Shown here in pieces: positions 3,664 through 44,406 of a DNA stretch of 64,000 bases (within the stretch, counting starts at the first letter, position 1; each line of letters opens with the position of its first letter). The notes under the pieces were generated by a model that saw nothing but the letters and a program-made list of their open reading frames with translations, was not told where the DNA came from and searched no databases. Source of the DNA: an uncultured archaeon (GTDB taxonomy: Archaea > Asgardarchaeota > Lokiarchaeia > Sigyniarchaeales > SOKP01); NCBI GenBank assembly GCA_964388035.1, contig CAYLZE010000001.1, positions 1 to 64,000 on the forward strand. Reading direction: 5' to 3'. A program made the position numbers and the translations under genes.

Positions 3664-4236
3664 TTACTTACGATCTTTCTTCTGAAGAGAAATTCCCTCT
3701 CGGGATATTATAACATCTCCTTCCCCTTCCATAATATTTACATATCGGGATAAAACAAATAAATAGTCGGACAATCTATTTAAATATTTTATGATTTCAA
3801 GATTAACAGTTTCTTGCTTAGAAAGTTTAATAGCGGCCCTTTCTGCTCTACGGCACACCGTTCTTGAAACATGCAAAAAGGCTGCTGATTGCATGCCCCC
3901 TGGAATCACGAAGTTATATGCCTCCGGCATGGTTTGTGACAAGGAATCCATGCTTTTTTCTAATTCAGAAATATCTTCGGGTAATATTTTTTTAATTACT
4001 CTCTTCTCATCCATTGAGGCTAATTCGGATGCTAAATAAAATAATATAACTTGAACATCTTGGATGAGTTTTTGAATTTTAATTGAAGAAAAGGCTTTTG
4101 CTAAACCTAAACTTGCGTTCAATTCATCTACAGTTCCATATGTTTCAACTCGTGGACTTGTTTTGTCTATACGTTCTCCGGAAAATAAATCTGTCTGCCC
4201 CTTATCTCCTCTTCTCGTATATATTGGTTTTACCAT
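3664..4236 (-). CDS. pduO: ATP:cob(I)alamin adenosyltransferase, PduO type
   Basis: IYTRRGDKGQT, YGTVDELNA, RTVCRRAER, YLNRLSDYLF. Confidence 0.95.
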   Translation of the reverse strand: MVKPIYTRRGDKGQTDLFSGERIDKTSPRVETYGTVDELNASLGLAKAFSSIKIQKLIQDVQVILFYLASELASMDEKRVIKKILPEDISELEKSMDSLSQTMPEAYNFVIPGGMQSAAFLHVSRTVCRRAERAAIKLSKQETVNLEIIKYLNRLSDYLFVLSRYVNIMEGEGDVIISREGISLQKKDRK

Positions 4237-35568: not shown

Positions 35569-36675
35569 ATGGCAGATTTATTAATCATAAATGAAGCTGG
35601 TCAATTACTATATAGTTGGCATGAAGGGGAAACTACGGGGGATGATACCCTCATAAGCGGGTTTTTGATCGCTTTAAATAGTTTTGCAACCATTGAGAGA
35701 GGAGAAGAAATTAAATCCTTGAAATTAAAGGAAACTACCTTGATTTTCGAAAAATTTGAACAATATCTTCAGAAATTAGTATTCGTAATTACAACAAAAT
35801 CCGAAGATCTAATCACGTTGCTTTCTGAACTTTTAAAAGATATTATTCGCAAATTTACGGAAGTCTATGAAACAGATTTAAATAAGCAATTTAACGGAGA
35901 TGTTTCCATGTATAATAAATTTACTCCCGTAATGGAAGAACTTTTAAGATCTTATGGCATGGATGAATTAACTGCATACAAAAACAATATTGATGATGAA
36001 AACACCATGAAGGCAGTGATGTTTATAACACCTAAAGAGGGAGAGATTCTCTATATTCATGCCAAACAATATATCGATAAAAATAAAGTAAGTTATTTAA
36101 TGCCTTTTATTCACACCTCTGCATCTGTCTTCTTTAATAAAACCTTTAATCAGGAAATTAATCGAATTTTAATTCGAACTATTAAAGATGAAGGGCTCAT
36201 GGTAGAAAGTAGAAGTCTCGTATTACTCGCTACTCTCTATAAATTTCATGATGATTTTGAAGAACTCTTTGAGGCTCAGATTTCGTCTAAAAAACTAGAT
36301 AAATACGTGAAAAATATAGAGAAGCTTGAAAAAGTATTTCAGAAAATAAATTGGAATTCTGCCATTTCCGAATTGTATATTGTCAATCCGTTAGGAAAAC
36401 CACTTTTTCATTCATCACTAATTCATTCACAACAACAACAAGGAATTCTCTTCCCGGAGCTCATTACAGTTTTAACAAGCTCAGAAAATTTGTCCAAGCA
36501 ATTTTTCAACCGAGAATTATTTTTTTTTAGCATTTTGGGAAATCAAGAATTTGGGATTGCTTGCTTAAATTTTAAGGTATTTTATATGGTAATGTTATTT
36601 GATATTAAAAAGATGAACGATTTCCATTCCATTGAAATAGTTTGGAAAACATTATTGGAGGAAATCAATTTTTAA
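35569..36675 (+). CDS. longin-domain protein, probably three tandem longin-like units
   Basis: LLIINEAGQLLYS..LISGFLIALNSFA; similar hairpins VMFITPKEGEILY and LYIVNPLGKPLF at roughly 120-145 aa spacing. Confidence 0.7.
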   Translation: MADLLIINEAGQLLYSWHEGETTGDDTLISGFLIALNSFATIERGEEIKSLKLKETTLIFEKFEQYLQKLVFVITTKSEDLITLLSELLKDIIRKFTEVYETDLNKQFNGDVSMYNKFTPVMEELLRSYGMDELTAYKNNIDDENTMKAVMFITPKEGEILYIHAKQYIDKNKVSYLMPFIHTSASVFFNKTFNQEINRILIRTIKDEGLMVESRSLVLLATLYKFHDDFEELFEAQISSKKLDKYVKNIEKLEKVFQKINWNSAISELYIVNPLGKPLFHSSLIHSQQQQGILFPELITVLTSSENLSKQFFNRELFFFSILGNQEFGIACLNFKVFYMVMLFDIKKMNDFHSIEIVWKTLLEEINF

Positions 36676-36998
36676 CGATAGATAATTTTTGCCATATATA
36701 TTTCATTAAAGTTATCTTTAAATCTCTATTTAGAAAACTAATAGGCAATTTAAAATTCAATTTTTAAATAATTTCTTGTAAGATTAATTCGTGCTTCATA
36801 ATCTTTCACTTTCTTGAATAAGAAAGCGTTAAGACATGATGAAATAAAAATGTGATTGGAAACGTCAATCCCTAAAAACTGAATTCAGCTTCATCACTTG
36901 AAATGAGAATTGAGAATAGGTTAAGATTTATAGAGATAAAGAATTTCAATGGTAAAGATTTATATATCATAGTCTTAATCTTAGAATGAACTAAAAAT

Positions 36999-38000
36999 GT
37001 GAAATTTAAAATGTTTACACCTGAACAAATAAAAGATGTATTAAATGAAAACTGTATAAATCTTCGATTTCATGCGAGAGGCGGTCAAGGAGGAGTTACC
37101 GCGTCCAACTTATGCGTCGAAGCGTTTCAAGGGTATGGCGTATGTCAACCAAGCTTTGGCGCTGAAAGAATGGGCTCCCCTACTGAAAGCTATGTAAGAC
37201 TTTCCTTGAATGAAAATTTAGTTCGATCCAATGAACAAGTGTATGTTCCCCATTTTGTTTCTGTATTGGATCCCACGTTATTAACAGAGGTTGATGTAAC
37301 CGCAGGAGTACCAAGTGGAGGATGGTTAATCGTAAATACTACCATGAATCAAGAAGAAATACAAGATTTGGTAAAGCGAAAGGACTTGAATGTCGCTACA
37401 GTAGATGCCTTAAACATCGCAATGGAAATCTTGGGAAGAAACATTACAAATACTATTATTTTAGGTGCCTTAATCCGTGTATCTTACCTCTTTTCCTTGG
37501 ATCAACTTTCCGAAGCCATCATGACAAGATTCGTGGGAGAAATAGCGGGAAAAAATATGGAAGCAGTGAAACGAGCTTATGATGAAGTATGCGTTTACGA
37601 AAGCGGAGTTCAACTTGATTTCACCGTAGACTCTAAAATTCCTTGGCAACAAGTTCGACCTGGTTTGCCGGGATATAAAGAGCTTGATAAGTCCGGAGTA
37701 TGGTATTGTGATGAAGATGTAATTGAATACGGAAGTAATCAAGTAAAAACGGGATCGTGGGGAGAATGGGATGTAATTTGGATTGAAGATAAATGCACGG
37801 ATTGTGCCCTATGTTGGTATATTTGCCCCGATTTTGCCATCATGAGGAAAAAAGGAGATGATGGTCTGTGGCACATGGCAGGTATTGATTCTTATCATTG
37901 TAAATCTTGTTTAAATTGTCTCAACATTTGTCCTGTAAATGCAATTGATAAAAAATTAAGACAAGGGCCAGCATCATGCGCTGCGCCAGAAAAAGCATAG
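36999..38000 (+). CDS. porC: 2-oxoacid:ferredoxin oxidoreductase gamma subunit fused to delta (2x4Fe-4S) subunit
   Basis: RFHARGGQGGVT, PSFGAERMGSP, NT..LGA; C-terminal KTGSW, CTDCALCWYICPD, CKSCLNCLNICP. Confidence 0.92.
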   Translation: MKFKMFTPEQIKDVLNENCINLRFHARGGQGGVTASNLCVEAFQGYGVCQPSFGAERMGSPTESYVRLSLNENLVRSNEQVYVPHFVSVLDPTLLTEVDVTAGVPSGGWLIVNTTMNQEEIQDLVKRKDLNVATVDALNIAMEILGRNITNTIILGALIRVSYLFSLDQLSEAIMTRFVGEIAGKNMEAVKRAYDEVCVYESGVQLDFTVDSKIPWQQVRPGLPGYKELDKSGVWYCDEDVIEYGSNQVKTGSWGEWDVIWIEDKCTDCALCWYICPDFAIMRKKGDDGLWHMAGIDSYHCKSCLNCLNICPVNAIDKKLRQGPASCAAPEKA

Positions 38001-38010
38001 AGGTGGTATC

Positions 38011-39240
38011 ATGTCTATCGAACCTATGAAGTTATTCTTTAAAGAAATAAAAGAACCTGTCGAAACTGCGATGATAGGAAATTATGCAGTGGCTGGGGCA
38101 GTTACTCAAACGGATCCCGATGTAATTTGTGCGTTTCCTATAACCCCACAAACTCAATCTGTAGAAGGTCTCTCGGATGTCGTTCACCAAGGAAGACTCA
38201 AGGCTGCTTTCGTGAATGTTGAATCTGAACTGGCAGCAATAAGTTATTCTACTGCTGCGAGTGCTGCAGGTGCCAGAGCATTTACGGCGACCGCGTCTCA
38301 AGGTTTTTTATTGATGACAGAAGCCCTTCCCATGGCAGTGGGATGGCGCGTTCCTTTAACCATGATGATTTCAGCACGAGCTTTTAATTCTCCTAATTTA
38401 TCTATTTGGAATTCATGGGAATTTACCGAAGTAAATTCGGAATTGGGATGGAATTGCTTGGTCTCTGAAAATGTCCAAGAAACTTACGATGCAGCAATTA
38501 TATCAGTTATGGTTTCTGAAGATTCCTTATTTCCCACCATGTTTGTCCACGATGGCTTTATCATCTCTCATTCCGTACAAAAACTCTGGCTCATCCCCGA
38601 TGAAATTGTACGAAAAATGACACCAAAGAAACCCCGGCAAACGATTAATCCAGAAAATCCCGGAACATGGGGCGGAATCGTGACTCCGGATTTTTTCATG
38701 GAAGGTAGAAAAAAGTTAGATGAAGATAAAGAAGCGGTATTGGGCATCATGAAAAACTGCTTTAAAACGTTCGAAAAGGAGACGGGGCGCAAGTATGATC
38801 TAATTGAAACCTACAATCTTGATAATTCTTCAAAAACAGCCATCATAACGATGGGGTCAATGTGTGGAAATATTATAAGTTGGATGACGAAAAATCCCGA
38901 TATCGGCTTGATAAAAATTCGTGCCTTTCGTCCATTTCCCTATGCAGAATTGAGGAAAATCGTGGAAGAACACAATATTGAAAAGATCATCATCATTGAA
39001 AAATCAGATTCATTGAATGGAATGCTCCCTCCCTTTTCCATGTCGATTGCTAGCGCGTTATATCCCCTTGGAACTCTTTTCAGGAGCTTCATCGCGGGAT
39101 TAGGTGGGCGAGATGTTACCCGGGACGAATTTAATGTAGCTAAAAAGAAAATGGAAAAAGTAACGGACATGAATGGAAAATTATACATGTATTTAGGGGT
39201 TAGAGAAACAAAACAAAAAATTCACGAGGTTGATGCATAA
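38011..39240 (+). CDS. porA: 2-oxoacid:ferredoxin oxidoreductase alpha subunit
   Basis: FPITPQT, VESELAA, TATASQG, DGF..SH, FRPFP, GLGGRDV; GAGGTGG RBS. Confidence 0.95.
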   Translation: MSIEPMKLFFKEIKEPVETAMIGNYAVAGAVTQTDPDVICAFPITPQTQSVEGLSDVVHQGRLKAAFVNVESELAAISYSTAASAAGARAFTATASQGFLLMTEALPMAVGWRVPLTMMISARAFNSPNLSIWNSWEFTEVNSELGWNCLVSENVQETYDAAIISVMVSEDSLFPTMFVHDGFIISHSVQKLWLIPDEIVRKMTPKKPRQTINPENPGTWGGIVTPDFFMEGRKKLDEDKEAVLGIMKNCFKTFEKETGRKYDLIETYNLDNSSKTAIITMGSMCGNIISWMTKNPDIGLIKIRAFRPFPYAELRKIVEEHNIEKIIIIEKSDSLNGMLPPFSMSIASALYPLGTLFRSFIAGLGGRDVTRDEFNVAKKKMEKVTDMNGKLYMYLGVRETKQKIHEVDA

Positions 39241-40358
39241 TGTCAAAACCAGAAAATAATATCATTAACATGGAAGAAATTCTCGAGAGAAAGGAAAAAA
39301 GTAATGTCTTGTTTGTCAATTATGATAATGAGGCGTTCATGAATACTGGAAATTGAAAAAAAAATATTTTTTCAAACAGAGTTCAAGAATCAGGCGGAAC
39401 GCCTCCACATGCATCCACGACCACGGGTCCTGGGGGAGAAAAGATTCCTGGGAAGGTCGGTGTCAAGCAAGATTTAGTGACTCCATTCAGCTTTTTTGGA
39501 ACTAAATCACTATTTCTGGCCACGGCAAATCCAGCTTATCCCATGGATTTAATGGGAAAAGTAATGGAAGCATTAAAGACGAATGGTTCCGGTTTTATAC
39601 AAATCTTCAGCGATTGCATGCGTGGGTGGCGGCACGGCGCGGAAGACACGCTTAATGTCTCAAAATTGGCGACAGACTGTGGTTATTGGCCCCTTTTTAC
39701 CATTCGAGTTAAAAATGCCAAGCCTGTATATTCTTACTATCGTGGATTAGATGTAGATAAAGAAAAGTTTGAACAATTCTTGAAATCAATGGGTAGATTT
39801 AAACATTTATTTCGTCCTAAATTTATGGAAGAGGAAATAGATGAGATTATCTACTACACGGAACAACGAAATGCCCGATTAAAAGCTTTAATACAAGTGT
39901 TTGGAGCTGAAAAACCTGTAGATATTTATAGAATCAACCGAAAGAAATTAGAGCCTCAATACCATCTCCAACCAGGTCACGGTCTTTGTCCGGGATGCGG
40001 TGCGGGCATGTTCTTGAACCAAATGGCAACCGCAGCCACTCAAGTTGCGGGGAAAAATATTATTTACGTGAATAATACCAGCTGTTCCGAGGTTTCCACT
40101 TCAAAAGACAATGTATCTTCATGGAACGTTCCATGGGTGCATCATCTTTTTGAATCAGGGGCTACTATTGCGGAAGCTATTAGTACAACGTATAAAATTC
40201 TCAAATTTAAAAATATATATCAAGGAGAAGTGCCCTACGTCATACATATCGGAGGAGATGGCTCAACTTATGATATAGGTTTCCAATTCCTAAAATCGGC
40301 TCTCGTTAGGACAAGCAGTTTTGTAGAAATGAATGAATATTTAGCAAATCAAAAATAA
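39240..40358 (+). CDS. porB: 2-oxoacid:ferredoxin oxidoreductase beta subunit, circularly permuted and interrupted by a 30-nt insert containing TGA (39354-39356)
   Basis: ATG 39240 overlaps the porA TAA (TAATG) with GAGGT upstream; same frame as the 39477 ORF; reads NVLFVNYDNEAFMNTG-[N*KKNIFSNR]-VQESGGTPPHASTTT..SDCMRGW..PGHGLCPGCG..TSCSEV..GGDGSTYDIG. Confidence 0.9.
39352..39381 (+). other. candidate 30-nt bulge-helix-bulge/loop mRNA intron in porB
   Basis: stem 39353-61/39367-75; 3-nt bulge AAA 39350-52; helix CUGG 39346-49 with ACAG 39376-79 (3 of 4 Watson-Crick); excision gives in-frame NTGIQ. Confidence 0.6.
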
Positions 40359-40401
40359 TTTTTTTAACCTTCTATTTTTTTTAACTTAAGAAATCCTTTC
40401 T

Positions 40402-40522
40402 TTTTTTATCATTTTCAAAAATCGCAATGAGTATTGAACAAAATTTTCTCATCGCTCGATTTGGAAAAGAATATACTACTTATATGAAAGAGATAAATGG
40501 AATTATCCCATTTATTTACTAA
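40402..40522 (+). pseudogene. 3' remnant of an isoprenylcysteine carboxyl methyltransferase (ICMT/Ste14/PEMT-like) gene
   Basis: FFIIFKNR, one extra A, then MSIEQNFLIARFGKEYTTYMKEINGIIPFIY* (40427-40522), matching the family C-terminus R...EE..L...FG..Y..Y......IPFIY. Confidence 0.7.
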
Positions 40523-40560
40523 TCAAATAAAATTTTCAAATTCAGACTAAAAAAAATTTT

Positions 40561-43134
40561 TTAATTAAAAAATTCTTTAACGATTAACTGGCATAATTTT
40601 ACCATTTTTTGACCTAAATCTTGTTCATCTTGCGAATTAGTTAAGATCCAATCTTTTTGGTATAATTTATCCAAATATTCCCCCTTTGCATCAATAGAGA
40701 AAGCATATACTTTAAAGCGTTTCCTAACGTCATGAATATCATTCATGGCTTCGTTTAAGCCATAATTCCCATCTCCCGCAGGCTGCCCATCCGAAATAAC
40801 AATTATAAAGTCGTCCTTTTGTAGTTTATTAGCTTCATGTTTTATTGAAATCCCGTCTAAATTTTGACAATCATTAGCATGGCTTCCAAATTTGTCCATC
40901 TTCTTAGGATTCAAGGGTTCATCAAAATTTTTTACCAAGATATTTAATGCATCATGTTTTCCCGTGAATAGAACGATCCTTGTATTTGCTAGATATTCTA
41001 AAGCTTCACATAGCAATACAAGAGCAATTTTTGCCGCTTTCATCTTAACCCCTTTCATACTCCCGGAAATATCTACTATAATCAATAATCTTAACTCTCT
41101 CTCAACTGTTTTCTTTGTAAAACATTGTTTATATCTATAATCACTGGTGACTGCCTTAATTAATTTGCTATTTAGCCGTCCTCGCTTCTGAAAAGAATCG
41201 TAGTCTCTCTGATTTTTTAATTCTGCAAAAACTCTTTTAATTTTTTTTATTTGGTTATCATAATTAATTTTCATTTGAGCTAAAGTTAAATCGACAGGTA
41301 TCATATTTTCTTTGTCAATCGTTGTTTCAATTACCTTTCTATCCTTAAAATCTCCTCCTATTTTAAGTACGCGCATCCCTAATTCTAATGTTTTTAATCG
41401 TCTATCCATCTCTTCCTCAGCTTTTTTAAGATTGTCTGCGATCTTTTTTAGTACTTCGACTTTGAATCTATGTCTTTTATCGTTGAGCAATTCCTCAATG
41501 TCAATTTTCTCATCTTTTTCATCAAATAGCTCTAATTGCTTAAAAATGGTTTCAAGTTGTTTGGAATTGAGCTTATCAACGCCTAATTTCTCACAGAGTC
41601 TTTCTTCAAATAAATCCAGGTCAGTTTTAGGATCTCCTTCACTTAGTCCATTATTTTTTATCTCATCTAACTCCATGAAAATATCTTTGAGGTCTTCACA
41701 GGAAATATCGCAATTCTCGAAGGTTTTATTTAATTCTTTAGATAAGTTCTCTAAATTAGACCCATAGTCTAAAGAGCCATTATTACTTCTTAAAAAATCC
41801 TCTTTTTGTTTTAATTCCTGGATATCCGAAATTAAATCATCTAATACCCCGTCTTCCAGATTTAAATCATCAAATTTCTCACGTAGGTTTTTTTTTAGCT
41901 CCTCTAATGCTTCTCTACTTTCAAAATGATTATTTAATAGATCTTGATTTTTTTCAATTTCTTGTAGGAATTCCTTCACTTGATCTGAATTTATCTCATT
42001 TTTATCGTGTGTTTCATTCCAACTTCTGGTGAATTCATCAATATCTTTTTCATAGGACATTTCCTCAGATTGAGATCCATAATAAGTACCATTCTCTCTA
42101 AAATTAGCTAGATCTTCTTCAATTTTCTCTAAATCTTTTGTAGATAAATCATATTCCTCCAAGTTTTTTATCAAATCTTCACTGTATTCTTGTAATTCCG
42201 TTTTTTCCTTGGTTAGCTTGTCAAATGTATTATTCTCAAATTGTTGGCTTTCATTCCAACGGGTTAAAAGATCAAAGTCTTCCATTGGGTTGCCCTGCTT
42301 TGGATTATCTTCATAGTTATAATATATTTCTCCATCCTCAATTTCAGATTCCATATCCTCCTCCCCTTCCTCAGGAACCATCGGGATAGGATAAGATCTC
42401 GATCCTCCGCCTGAACTAGACCCTGAACTTCCAGGAACACCTCTAACTTGAGGAAATTGATTAACTTTTCGTTCGATTTTTTTTGGAAAATATTTCTTTA
42501 AGATATTGCAAAGTTTATAGACGGAAAGTAAGGTCACGTTAGGAGTACGGAATTTTATGATAAACTTTTTGATATTAACAACGGAATTCCAATCTGAAAT
42601 ACTAATCTTAAATGGACCTAAATTAGGAATAGTCAAAAATCCTTCAAAATCCTCCATGAACAAATAGATGTAAGTTACAATATCTTTTAATTTTACAATT
42701 CTCGATTTAATTATGGGGATTAGTGTCAACTCTAAATTTCTCAAGTTTCTATAAAAACCGGGAAACTTTTTATCATTTATTGCATTAATCCTAACGTCTT
42801 CTACTACATTGACTAATTGTCGTACAAATCCCGAAGGTAAATCAAATTTCTTAGAAACTACCGCGACTAACTTGGCAAAATTTAATTCGAATGACCCATA
42901 ACCCACATGTCCTGCTTCATGGGCAACCAATCCCTGACTTCCTTTGATATCTTCTTTATACTTTTGTGGAATATAAATAATTCTACAGTCAGTAAAAGCA
43001 GCATAATCGTTTCGTAAATAAGAAATGAGAATATCTTTATTACCACTGATTCTCTTTGCAGTATTTGTAAGGGCTAGTAAATCAGTATTTACATCTCGCT
43101 CAAATAAATCAAATAATCCTAATTCTTTAAACAT
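40561..43134 (-). CDS. vWA-domain protein (NorD/CbbO/CobT-like) with N-terminal HExxH domain and acidic repeat linker
   Basis: AHEAGH, NVVEDVRIN, GRLN, MIDAS DISGS, ISDGQP. Confidence 0.88.
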   Translation of the reverse strand: MFKELGLFDLFERDVNTDLLALTNTAKRISGNKDILISYLRNDYAAFTDCRIIYIPQKYKEDIKGSQGLVAHEAGHVGYGSFELNFAKLVAVVSKKFDLPSGFVRQLVNVVEDVRINAINDKKFPGFYRNLRNLELTLIPIIKSRIVKLKDIVTYIYLFMEDFEGFLTIPNLGPFKISISDWNSVVNIKKFIIKFRTPNVTLLSVYKLCNILKKYFPKKIERKVNQFPQVRGVPGSSGSSSGGGSRSYPIPMVPEEGEEDMESEIEDGEIYYNYEDNPKQGNPMEDFDLLTRWNESQQFENNTFDKLTKEKTELQEYSEDLIKNLEEYDLSTKDLEKIEEDLANFRENGTYYGSQSEEMSYEKDIDEFTRSWNETHDKNEINSDQVKEFLQEIEKNQDLLNNHFESREALEELKKNLREKFDDLNLEDGVLDDLISDIQELKQKEDFLRSNNGSLDYGSNLENLSKELNKTFENCDISCEDLKDIFMELDEIKNNGLSEGDPKTDLDLFEERLCEKLGVDKLNSKQLETIFKQLELFDEKDEKIDIEELLNDKRHRFKVEVLKKIADNLKKAEEEMDRRLKTLELGMRVLKIGGDFKDRKVIETTIDKENMIPVDLTLAQMKINYDNQIKKIKRVFAELKNQRDYDSFQKRGRLNSKLIKAVTSDYRYKQCFTKKTVERELRLLIIVDISGSMKGVKMKAAKIALVLLCEALEYLANTRIVLFTGKHDALNILVKNFDEPLNPKKMDKFGSHANDCQNLDGISIKHEANKLQKDDFIIVISDGQPAGDGNYGLNEAMNDIHDVRKRFKVYAFSIDAKGEYLDKLYQKDWILTNSQDEQDLGQKMVKLCQLIVKEFFN

Positions 43135-43164
43135 GATCCCTCAATCATTCCATGTATTCTGTCT

Positions 43165-44406
43165 TTAAAGTACGGGAAATGTTGTTCTCATCAATTCTGT
43201 TAATTCCGCATTCATTTTTCGATATAGCCATTTAATGTATTTTAAAGTGATATTGCCAGCATAGATATGAGTTTTCCCAGTTTGCTGCTTGTACATATTA
43301 TGATAACCTAACTCTTCTGTTAGTTTTATGTATTCCTGCAAGATTTTCTTATTATATGACCAGATCCATTCCAACGGAGTCCAAATTATTTTCCCGCTTC
43401 GATTCGTAATGGATCTATAATTGTTGTTTTTTCTATAATTATGTAACCATAACCGCATTTCTCCTATTACGTTAGAGTTTTTGTCTGATTCCTCTAATTT
43501 AATGGAACTTTGAATCTCTTCCTTAACCTCTTTTTTAACTATTAATTCATCCTTGAGTTTTTTTTCCAGCATCTTCCCATCGAGTATCATCGCAATGCTT
43601 TTCTTTTCCTCAGTATTTTCAGCTAATCTATTAATGATAGCATTTTCGATATTGCACTTGATATATTGTGGCTCCATACGGGTTATTAGATAGCAGAAAT
43701 TTACAATCAGTCGTGTGGAAAAGATTTTGGTTAAGGAGAAATCTTCGAGGGCTTGTTTTCTAATTTCTCTTGCCGCATCTACCACGACCTCAGCAATTCG
43801 AGAACTGCAGCCTGAAATCCGAGAAGCAATGAGAATCTCCTTGTTTTTATCGGGATAATTTATCTCGGGGCTTGCAATAAAGCGATCATCAAATGCTTCC
43901 TGCAATTTATTAATTCCTATCACCCCCTTATTCATGGTACCAATGACAATCAACTTGCTTTCTGAGTTAAGTTCATACTTTTCAAATCCTTTGGAGATGA
44001 GGTTGATATGGTTCTCTGATAAGAGTGAATTAAGAGAAATCTGTTCACTCTCTCTAATTGCATTAACTTCATTTATAATTACAAAAGAAATTCCATTCTC
44101 ATTCGCAGATTTTATTGCTAATGTGAGTGGACCATAATTAAATAGTGTATTTCCCTTGATCAATTCCCAATTCCCTTCTATATCTCTTCTGTCAAGATCA
44201 GGAGAGCCATCAATGATAAAATAAGGTGCATTAAAGTCCTTTGCTAAAGTTATTGCTAATAACGTCTTGCCAGTTCCAGGAGGCCCATGCAATAGAATAC
44301 CTGCACACCTCCCTGGTTCCAATGATTCTATTAAACATTTTAAATAATCAAATTCGTCTTTTTGTTGAATATATTTTGGAGCTTTAATTATTGAAGCTTC
44401 TAACAT
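43165..44406 (-). CDS. MoxR/CbbQ/NorQ-like AAA+ ATPase
   Basis: LLHGPPGTGKT, GPL..A, IGTMN, L.EAF.DRF, YPD...E, STR. Confidence 0.9.
   Translation of the reverse strand: MLEASIIKAPKYIQQKDEFDYLKCLIESLEPGRCAGILLHGPPGTGKTLLAITLAKDFNAPYFIIDGSPDLDRRDIEGNWELIKGNTLFNYGPLTLAIKSANENGISFVIINEVNAIRESEQISLNSLLSENHINLISKGFEKYELNSESKLIVIGTMNKGVIGINKLQEAFDDRFIASPEINYPDKNKEILIASRISGCSSRIAEVVVDAAREIRKQALEDFSLTKIFSTRLIVNFCYLITRMEPQYIKCNIENAIINRLAENTEEKKSIAMILDGKMLEKKLKDELIVKKEVKEEIQSSIKLEESDKNSNVIGEMRLWLHNYRKNNNYRSITNRSGKIIWTPLEWIWSYNKKILQEYIKLTEELGYHNMYKQQTGKTHIYAGNITLKYIKWLYRKMNAELTELMRTTFPVL

What the first reader, a model, noticed from the sequence alone, without database searches (positions are those of the whole stretch)
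39340..39390. Candidate 30-nt bulge-helix-bulge mini-intron in a core metabolic mRNA (porB)
Seen: porB begins at 39240 (TAATG overlap with porA, RBS upstream) and reads YDNEAFMNTG-AAT-TGA-AAA-AAA-AAT-ATT-TTT-TCA-AAC-AGA-VQESGGTP. That is exactly 30 extra nt, with a stop, inside the YDNExxMNTGxQxSxxTP motif, and the frame is unchanged. The insert folds into a 9-bp stem (TTGAAAAAA 39353-61 / TTTTTTCAA 39367-75). On the 5' side come a 3-nt bulge (AAA 39350-52) and a 4-position helix CUGG/ACAG (3 Watson-Crick pairs, one G-A), and outside that UGAA 39340-43 pairs with UUCA 39382-85. Established: archaeal splicing endonuclease cuts after the second nt of each bulge, and mRNA introns of this type are known mainly from crenarchaeal cbf5. 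Applying that rule removes 39352-39381 and gives ACT-GGA-ATT-CAA, the canonical NTGIQ, and a 362-aa protein. Inference: splicing may gate expression of the oxidoreductase, since unspliced mRNA yields only a 38-aa peptide. Caveats: the motif is relaxed (BHL-like), not strict. Alternatives are ribosomal bypassing over the stop and hairpin, a recent inactivating insertion, or an assembly error.
Basis: partly seen in the sequence, partly recalled or inferred. Interest (0 to 1): 0.92.

Follow-up and report, generated by a model that had tools for sequence, protein, structure and literature searches.

The report
tRNA-type mini-intron in Asgard oxidoreductase gene
A 30-base stop-containing hairpin splits the cofactor-binding motif of a pyruvate-type oxidoreductase gene in a Loki-type Asgard archaeon, and comparison with about 90 relatives indicates it is very probably cut out of the mRNA by the tRNA-splicing enzyme, a kind of splicing that the papers I could search document inside an archaeal coding sequence only for cbf5.

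Summary
Observation confirmed; the splicing reading is well supported but not shown on RNA. The insert (39352-39381) is in two sequencing runs. The host is a Promethearchaeota (Loki) archaeon. 88 orthologues read NTGIQ uninterrupted. Three other genomes carry 30-31-nt hairpins at the same site, one frameshifting and one with compensatory stem changes; a fifth has a strict BHB insert 6 nt downstream. The EndA cut rule restores the invariant Ile in all four same-site cases; bypassing would give V, V, L, I. A motif-blind protein comparison picks the same cut (1 of 79 positions). It also finds seven more disruptive 29-37-nt inserts in this genome (nadE, cdhA, iolM, iolN and others), all with BHB geometry. 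The genome has a two-subunit EndA with the broad-specificity loop, RtcB, and two tRNA introns with the same G-A mismatch. Regulation by splicing is unsupported: the intron is patchy and other PorB paralogues exist. No RNA run was available. The scan noted this class before, in this genome and in at least 97 genomes, some notes reporting spliced RNA; I did not check those.

The parts
39240..39351 (+). porB exon 1 (37 codons plus the first base of the Ile codon), ends in DNEAFMNTG of the ThDP/Mg-binding motif
39352..39381 (+). 30-nt BHB-type (HBh'-like) intron with in-frame UGA at 39354-39356
39346..39349 (+). 5' strand of the 4-position central helix (exon 1), pairs with 39376-39379; G-A mismatch next to the 5' bulge
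39350..39352 (+). 5' bulge; predicted cut between 39351 and 39352
39353..39375 (+). intron hairpin: 9-bp stem 39353-61/39367-75 with 5-nt loop; covaries in BC1 and BC3
39376..39379 (+). 3' strand of the central helix
39380..39382 (+). 3' bulge or loop; predicted cut between 39381 and 39382
39330..39405 (+). exon-exon pairing around the intron: 39340-43 with 39382-85 and a 9-bp stem 39330-38 with 39397-405 (most stable of 87 orthologous flank pairs; not shared by BC1 or BC3)
39382..40358 (+). porB exon 2; intact, keeps the four expected Fe-S cluster Cys (116, 240, 243, 272 of the spliced protein) and GGDG at 328; circularly permuted against solved PorB
38011..39240 (+). porA (alpha subunit), intact, overlaps the porB start
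36999..38000 (+). porG-porD fusion (gamma plus ferredoxin-like delta), first gene of the operon

Best explanation
The 30 nt are an intron of the archaeal tRNA type in the porGD-porA-porB operon mRNA. The transcript folds so that the last exon-1 bases pair with the intron's 3' end (4-position helix) between two bulges, closed by a 9-bp intron hairpin and by exon-exon pairing. The host's two-subunit splicing endonuclease cuts after the second base of each bulge (39351/52 and 39381/82) and RtcB joins the exons, giving NTGIQ and a 362-aa beta subunit. Shown: the DNA, the predicted fold, the cut positions implied by protein conservation, and the enzymes' genes. Inferred: folding in vivo, cleavage, ligation and translation. 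It is one of a class of such introns in this genome and is most likely a tolerated, removable insertion rather than a conserved regulatory switch.
For: (1) Ile is invariant in 88/88 distinct intron-less orthologues, and only the BHB register of 13 tested gives it. A motif-blind comparison with a different-family orthologue picks 39352 as the unique best of 79 positions. (2) Same-site inserts in BC1 (30 nt), BC3 (30 nt) and bin106 (31 nt, frameshift) all keep BHB geometry, and the same rule gives Ile and an open frame in each. BC3 differs from this genome's stem at four pairs (A-U or U-A to G-C or C-G) with all nine pairs kept. (3) YT6_002 has a different 31-nt strict BHB insert 6 nt downstream; only the BHB register of five restores QES. 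(4) All four same-site hosts use ACT GGA, the codons that pair with the intron end, against 14/88 intron-less genes. (5) Motif-blind census over 1,199 genes: the 7 disruptive inserts with local identity of at least 0.8 are all 29-37 nt with a 4/4 central helix and a stem of at least 7 bp (chance 4e-4 per position); 1 of 16 ordinary in-frame inserts has this. (6) EndA alpha and beta and RtcB are present; alpha's best solved match is A. pernix 3P1Z, with the specificity loop, its Lys and the catalytic Tyr, His, Lys aligned. (7) Host tRNA-Ser(UGA) and tRNA-Thr(CGU) introns carry the same G-A mismatch at the same helix position. (8) Exon 2 dN 0.094 against dS about 2.8 versus the same-genus genome.
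Against: No RNA or protein evidence for this locus. The strict outer helix is poor (2 of 6 pairs), so the motif is relaxed, and the minimum-energy fold pairs one base of the 3' bulge. In BC3 the minimum-energy fold of the short segment prefers another pairing for the 5' exon. Only four same-site examples from three genera. dN/dS against another species cannot exclude a very recent loss of function.
Confidence: 0.9

Rival explanations
1. Programmed ribosomal bypassing (T4 gene 60 type): the ribosome takes off at GGA, skips the stop and hairpin and lands at AGA, giving NTGVQ.
For: All four same-site inserts end in AGA, a stop follows within two codons in three of them, and there is a hairpin.
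Against: GGA to AGA is a first-position mismatch. The products would be V, V, L, I at a position that is Ile in 88/88 orthologues, whereas the BHB cut gives Ile every time. The AGA follows from helix pairing plus an A in the bulge. Of 12 census inserts, 8 have no direct repeat at their ends and only one has 3 nt.
Confidence: 0.03
2. The insert is an inactivating insertion that is never removed; this porB is a young pseudogene covered by other oxidoreductase beta paralogues.
For: The same-genus genome lacks it, and the genome has ordinary PorB-type paralogues (C5, C10). dN/dS between species cannot see very recent decay.
Against: Same-site inserts in three separate genera, all with otherwise open frames and intact operons where assembled, with covarying stems. 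Seven further genes including nadE and cdhA are broken the same way with BHB geometry at the protein-defined cut.
Confidence: 0.04
3. UGA read-through (selenocysteine) gives a PorB with a 10-residue insertion.
For: UGA stands at the same codon in three of four same-site inserts, and Lokiarchaeota have a Sec system (PMC4989117 abstract).
Against: bin106 and YT6_002 have 31-nt frameshifting inserts, and five of seven other disruptive inserts in this genome frameshift. Ten residues would sit inside the ThDP/Mg loop, which has no indel in 88 orthologues.
Confidence: 0.01
4. Assembly error around the A/T homopolymers.
For: The insert has runs of 9 A and 6 T.
Against: Contigs of two runs carry it without gaps, and a 27/30-identical insert sits at the same site in another genome.
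Confidence: 0.005
5. The intron is spliced and serves as a regulatory gate on oxidoreductase expression.
For: Unspliced mRNA gives only 38 aa. The exon flanks here form the most stable duplex of 87 orthologous pairs.
Against: Intron in 4 of 161 class genomes searched, absent from sister taxa in each genus, not one clade (p-AU 2e-10). The flank duplex is not shared by BC1 or BC3.
Confidence: 0.12

Closest known systems
cbf5 pre-mRNA intron of Crenarchaeota (Desulfurococcales, Sulfolobales; Watanabe 2002, Yoshinari 2006, Yokobori 2009 PMC2738675)
   Same: Short intron inside a coding sequence, in a catalytically critical conserved motif, junction between first and second base of a codon, relaxed BHB, host with hetero-oligomeric EndA.
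   Different: Asgard host, metabolic gene, patchy presence in unrelated genera with a second position nearby, and one of at least 8 disruptive inserts in the same genome rather than a single gene. Splicing is shown for cbf5 and not here.
Haloferax volcanii HVO_1309 mRNA BHB site (Schwarz 2020, PMC7714728; spliced product noted in PMC10485636)
   Same: EndA acting on an mRNA.
   Different: That site is in the 5' UTR and does not break a reading frame.
Asgard and crenarchaeal tRNA introns (PMC11291895; bioRxiv 10.64898/2026.10.13.758758)
   Same: Size, hairpin architecture, BHB boundaries, repeated gains, unknown route of arrival; same enzyme predicted.
   Different: Those papers concern tRNA genes; a text search of the 2026 preprint finds no occurrence of 'mRNA'.
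Translational bypassing, T4 gene 60 type (own knowledge)
   Same: Stop plus hairpin in a non-coding gap within a coding sequence.
   Different: No matched take-off and landing codons; the restored residue fits an RNA-level cut inside a codon.

Membership tests
Archaeal BHB (EndA-spliced) intron | 4-bp central helix between exon 1 and the intron 3' end | tested here: met
   3 of 4 pairs plus G-A here; 4 of 4 in bin106 and YT6_002; same mismatch in two host tRNA introns
Archaeal BHB (EndA-spliced) intron | Two 3-nt bulges on opposite strands with cuts after the second base that restore the host gene | tested here: met
   Only this register gives invariant Ile; unique best of 79 motif-blind positions
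Archaeal BHB (EndA-spliced) intron | Intron-side helix h' | tested here: met
   9 bp, with compensatory changes in BC3 and a wobble in BC1
Strict hBHBh' motif | Exon-side helix h directly closing the 3' bulge | tested here: not met
   2 of 6 pairs in strict register; pairing is offset, so the motif is relaxed (HBh' or BHL-like). Strict in YT6_002
Archaeal BHB (EndA-spliced) intron | Host has an EndA able to cut relaxed motifs, and a ligase | tested here: met
   alpha plus beta EndA, loop and Lys aligned with A. pernix 3P1Z, RtcB; PMC5829648 ties this loop to relaxed substrates and reports it throughout Asgard. Gene presence only
Archaeal BHB (EndA-spliced) intron | Spliced RNA and excised or circular intron observed; EndA-dependent cleavage | not testable with these tools
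   No RNA run holding this locus was listed
Programmed ribosomal bypassing | Matched take-off and landing codons | tested here: not met
   GGA against AGA; no end repeat in most census inserts
Group I or II self-splicing introns, other Rfam RNAs | Ribozyme core or Rfam match | tested here: not met
   30 nt; no Rfam match at E up to 1 in 36500-40600
2-oxoacid:ferredoxin oxidoreductase beta subunit (PorB) | GDG...N ThDP motif and four Fe-S Cys | tested here: met
   All present after splicing, in permuted order; best solved match 9BT4 chain C, E 2e-38. Substrate not tested

The most novel reading that the evidence does not exclude
Loki-type Asgard archaea carry a genome-wide population of tRNA-type mini-introns in ordinary mRNAs (on the order of 25-30 or more in this genome by extrapolation), gained repeatedly at motif-forming sites and moving between genera. 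This genome's porB intron is 27/30 identical to that of BC1 although the two genes are not sisters and share only about 43% of synonymous codons elsewhere. Routine mRNA splicing by EndA and RtcB would then exist in close archaeal relatives of eukaryotes.
Probability: 0.55. Interest if true: 0.92.

Novelty: new variant of a known kind. Interest (0 to 1): 0.8.

Why it matters
A 2023 review counts two archaeal mRNAs spliced by the tRNA endonuclease and expects more (PMC10485636). Here the same chemistry appears to be needed to express several central metabolic genes in an Asgard genome. That bears on where protein-gene introns began, gives a possible prokaryotic precedent for Ire1/RtcB-type mRNA splicing (inference), makes the open question of how BHB introns arrive testable on protein genes with many orthologues, and means Asgard annotations wrongly list such genes as truncated or pseudogenes.

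Tried and rejected
No RNA holder was listed for this locus; this is no evidence either way. An exact spliced junction and the intron-bearing pattern found nothing in JGI metagenome contigs; uninformative. A de novo BHB scan with ORF restoration was too permissive: real and mirror-geometry counts were similar, e.g. 91 against 72, so it was dropped for the homology census. The first scan timed out. Rfam found nothing. No second copy of the intron within 5 mismatches exists in the genome. Co-conversion of flanking exon sequence: high only for bin106 (0.83 against mean 0.48, max 0.72 in intron-less genes), not for BC1 or BC3; inconclusive. Apparent stops in neighbouring genes of intron-bearing loci were shadow-frame or gene-boundary artefacts. 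A 400-kb sample of complete genome G032 showed no disruptive insert in 79 genes, too few to judge. Paper searches found no report of Asgard mRNA introns or of the permuted PorB; the library lacks most subscription journals.

Full report
OBSERVATION. The sequence is as described. porB begins at 39240, overlapping the porA stop, in an operon porG/D (36999-38000), porA (38011-39240), porB. After DNEAFMNTG come 30 extra bases with UGA at 39354-39356, and QESGGTP follows in the same frame. The region folds with a 9-bp hairpin (39353-61/39367-75), pairing of 39346-48 with 39377-79, and exon-exon helices; z = -3.0 for 61 nt and -5.0 for 81 nt. Contigs of two salt-marsh runs cross the insert without a gap: X1, 38628-39601, possibly the source sample, and X2, 39209-39435, no differences. 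It is not an assembly error.

HOST AND ORTHOLOGUES. Nearly all named relatives are Promethearchaeota (Loki-type Asgard) genomes. About 92 distinct orthologues were collected. In 88 distinct intron-less genes the motif reads NTGIQ with Ile invariant. The same-genus genome G001 has no insert. Three other genomes have an insert at the same site: BC1 (L092, 30 nt), BC3 (L106, 30 nt) and bin106 (L013/L088, 31 nt, frameshifting). A fifth, YT6_002 (L110), has an unrelated 31-nt insert six bases further on. A pattern search of 161 genomes of the class found the same four same-site cases and none for the reversed control.

THE CUT RULE FITS THE PROTEIN. Sliding a 30-nt deletion across the site, only the BHB register (remove 39352-39381) gives NTGIQ; neighbours give V, N, R or a stop, and only that register has BHB geometry. 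A motif-blind comparison with the orthologue of a different family chose the same position as the unique best of 79. In BC1, BC3 and bin106 the same rule gives Ile although the last intron base differs (G, C, A), and the frame opens. BC3's stem differs from this genome's at four pairs while all nine pairs are kept; BC1 has a G-U wobble; bin106 has a 4/4 central helix. YT6_002 folds into a strict BHB at minimum energy, and only its BHB register of five restores QES. All four same-site hosts use ACT GGA, the codons whose bases pair with the intron end, against 14 of 88 intron-less genes; the four represent about three independent lineages.

A CLASS, NOT A ONE-OFF. I compared the genome with 2.06 Mb of G001 without using the motif: 1,199 genes, breaks placed by best protein match. 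Fourteen stop- or frameshift-causing breaks appeared. The seven with local identity of at least 0.8 are 29-37 nt, and all have a 4/4 central helix and an inner stem of at least 7 bp. They lie in iolN, iolM, cdhA, a TfrB/GlcF-like Fe-S protein, an acyl-CoA dehydrogenase, AMP phosphorylase and nadE. The other seven are low-identity breaks, mostly at protein ends, without BHB geometry. One of 16 stop-free in-frame inserts of 18 nt or more has the geometry (33 nt, GlcD-like gene). The random frequency is 4e-4 per position. G001 has three such inserts of its own. Extrapolation gives roughly 25-30 in this genome, probably an undercount because shared introns and very short exons are missed; this is an estimate, not a count.

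MACHINERY. The genome has two EndA paralogues and RtcB. The catalytic one matches A. pernix EndA alpha (3P1Z, E 1e-35) best, with the specificity loop, its Lys, and the catalytic Tyr, His and Lys aligned. PMC5829648 states that only (alpha-beta)2 and epsilon2 enzymes with such a loop cut relaxed HBh', hBH or BHL motifs, and that the loop is conserved in Asgard. ARAGORN called introns in 15 of 22 tRNAs, some calls doubtful. The anticodon-loop introns of tRNA-Ser(UGA) and one tRNA-Thr(CGU) have a G-A mismatch at the same helix position as porB. The porB motif lacks a strict outer helix (2 of 6), so it is a relaxed member; in this genome an extra 9-bp exon-exon stem (39330-38/39397-405) closes it and is more stable than any of 83 intron-less flank pairs.

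FUNCTION OF THE GENE. The spliced product is 362 aa with four cluster Cys and GGDG. Exon 2 has dN 0.094 and dS about 2.8 (saturated) against G001. It is circularly permuted against solved PorB: exon-2 residues 1-155 match 135-282 of 9BT4 chain C and residues 188-310 match 3-116. That order is shared by all orthologues, with or without the intron, so it is a lineage trait separate from the intron. Ordinary PorB-type paralogues exist on C5 and C10.

HISTORY. On a tree of exon-2 proteins (92 rows, intron not used), the intron-bearing genes fall in three genera, each beside intron-less sisters. Holding the four together is rejected (27 rows, p-AU 2e-10). This genome's intron is 27/30 identical to BC1's while synonymous codon identity elsewhere in the gene is about 43%. 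That fits recent horizontal movement, but strong constraint on an A/T-rich hairpin or many independent losses are not excluded. The patchiness argues against a conserved regulatory role.

MECHANISM. Most likely (0.9): the mRNA folds into the relaxed BHB, EndA cuts at 39351/52 and 39381/82, RtcB ligates, and full-length PorB is made. DNA, geometry, protein-implied cut sites and enzyme genes are shown; cleavage, ligation and translation are inferred. Bypassing, pseudogene, selenocysteine read-through and assembly error each fail on the comparative data.

RELATION TO WHAT IS KNOWN. It works like, and by all testable features is, an archaeal BHB intron of the cbf5 kind; the strict hBHBh' form is not met, and splicing could not be tested. 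Published mRNA cases are cbf5 (PMC2738675, which also mentions unconfirmed predictions in other genes) and the Haloferax HVO_1309 5' UTR (PMC7714728, PMC10485636). Asgard intron papers found concern tRNAs. I found no paper on Asgard mRNA introns in the searchable library. The scan's own notes report this class many times, in this genome and in at least 97 genomes, and some report spliced RNA. I recovered three of their loci (nadE, iolM, iolN) by my own census but did not check their RNA claims and do not count them as evidence.

VERDICT. A real, very probably spliced tRNA-type intron in an Asgard metabolic gene, with good comparative support and no direct RNA proof. New variant of a known kind; interest 0.8.

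Noticed in passing
window 39240-40358: This PorB is circularly permuted: the usual C-terminal half comes first, and the break falls inside the GDG...N ThDP motif. All Loki orthologues fetched share it; no paper found.
   Followed up: yes
G000 C50:19070 and 21722, C199:1791, C10:43644(-) and 28487(-), C32:9854(-), C45:19136: Seven further disruptive BHB inserts in iolM, iolN, cdhA, an Fe-S protein, an acyl-CoA dehydrogenase, AMP phosphorylase and nadE.
   Followed up: partly
G000 C10:71610: 33-nt in-frame, stop-free insert with BHB geometry in a GlcD-like gene; could yield two protein forms if splicing is partial.
   Followed up: no
L220:5678(-), L202:19922(-), L203:5193(-) (genome G001): Three BHB inserts in the same-genus genome where this genome has none; two genes look like ribosomal protein L11 and RNase HII by sequence motif, not verified.
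   Followed up: partly
L110 near 3980-4010 (YT6_002): A second intron position in the same NTGIQES motif, strict BHB, 31 nt, six bases from the first site.
   Followed up: yes
G000 tRNA genes: ARAGORN found only 22 tRNAs, 15 with intron calls and several with odd anticodons, which suggests multiple or non-canonical introns that it misses.
   Followed up: no
window 40561-44406 (-): MoxR-type AAA+ ATPase and VWA protein pair directly downstream of porB on the opposite strand.
   Followed up: no
window 35569-36675: Longin-domain protein (Fuz/Mon1-like first longin, weak hit) upstream of the operon.
   Followed up: no
L046 and L093, porG/D gene: One stop each inside the porG/D match; perhaps unfused gamma and delta genes.
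   Followed up: no
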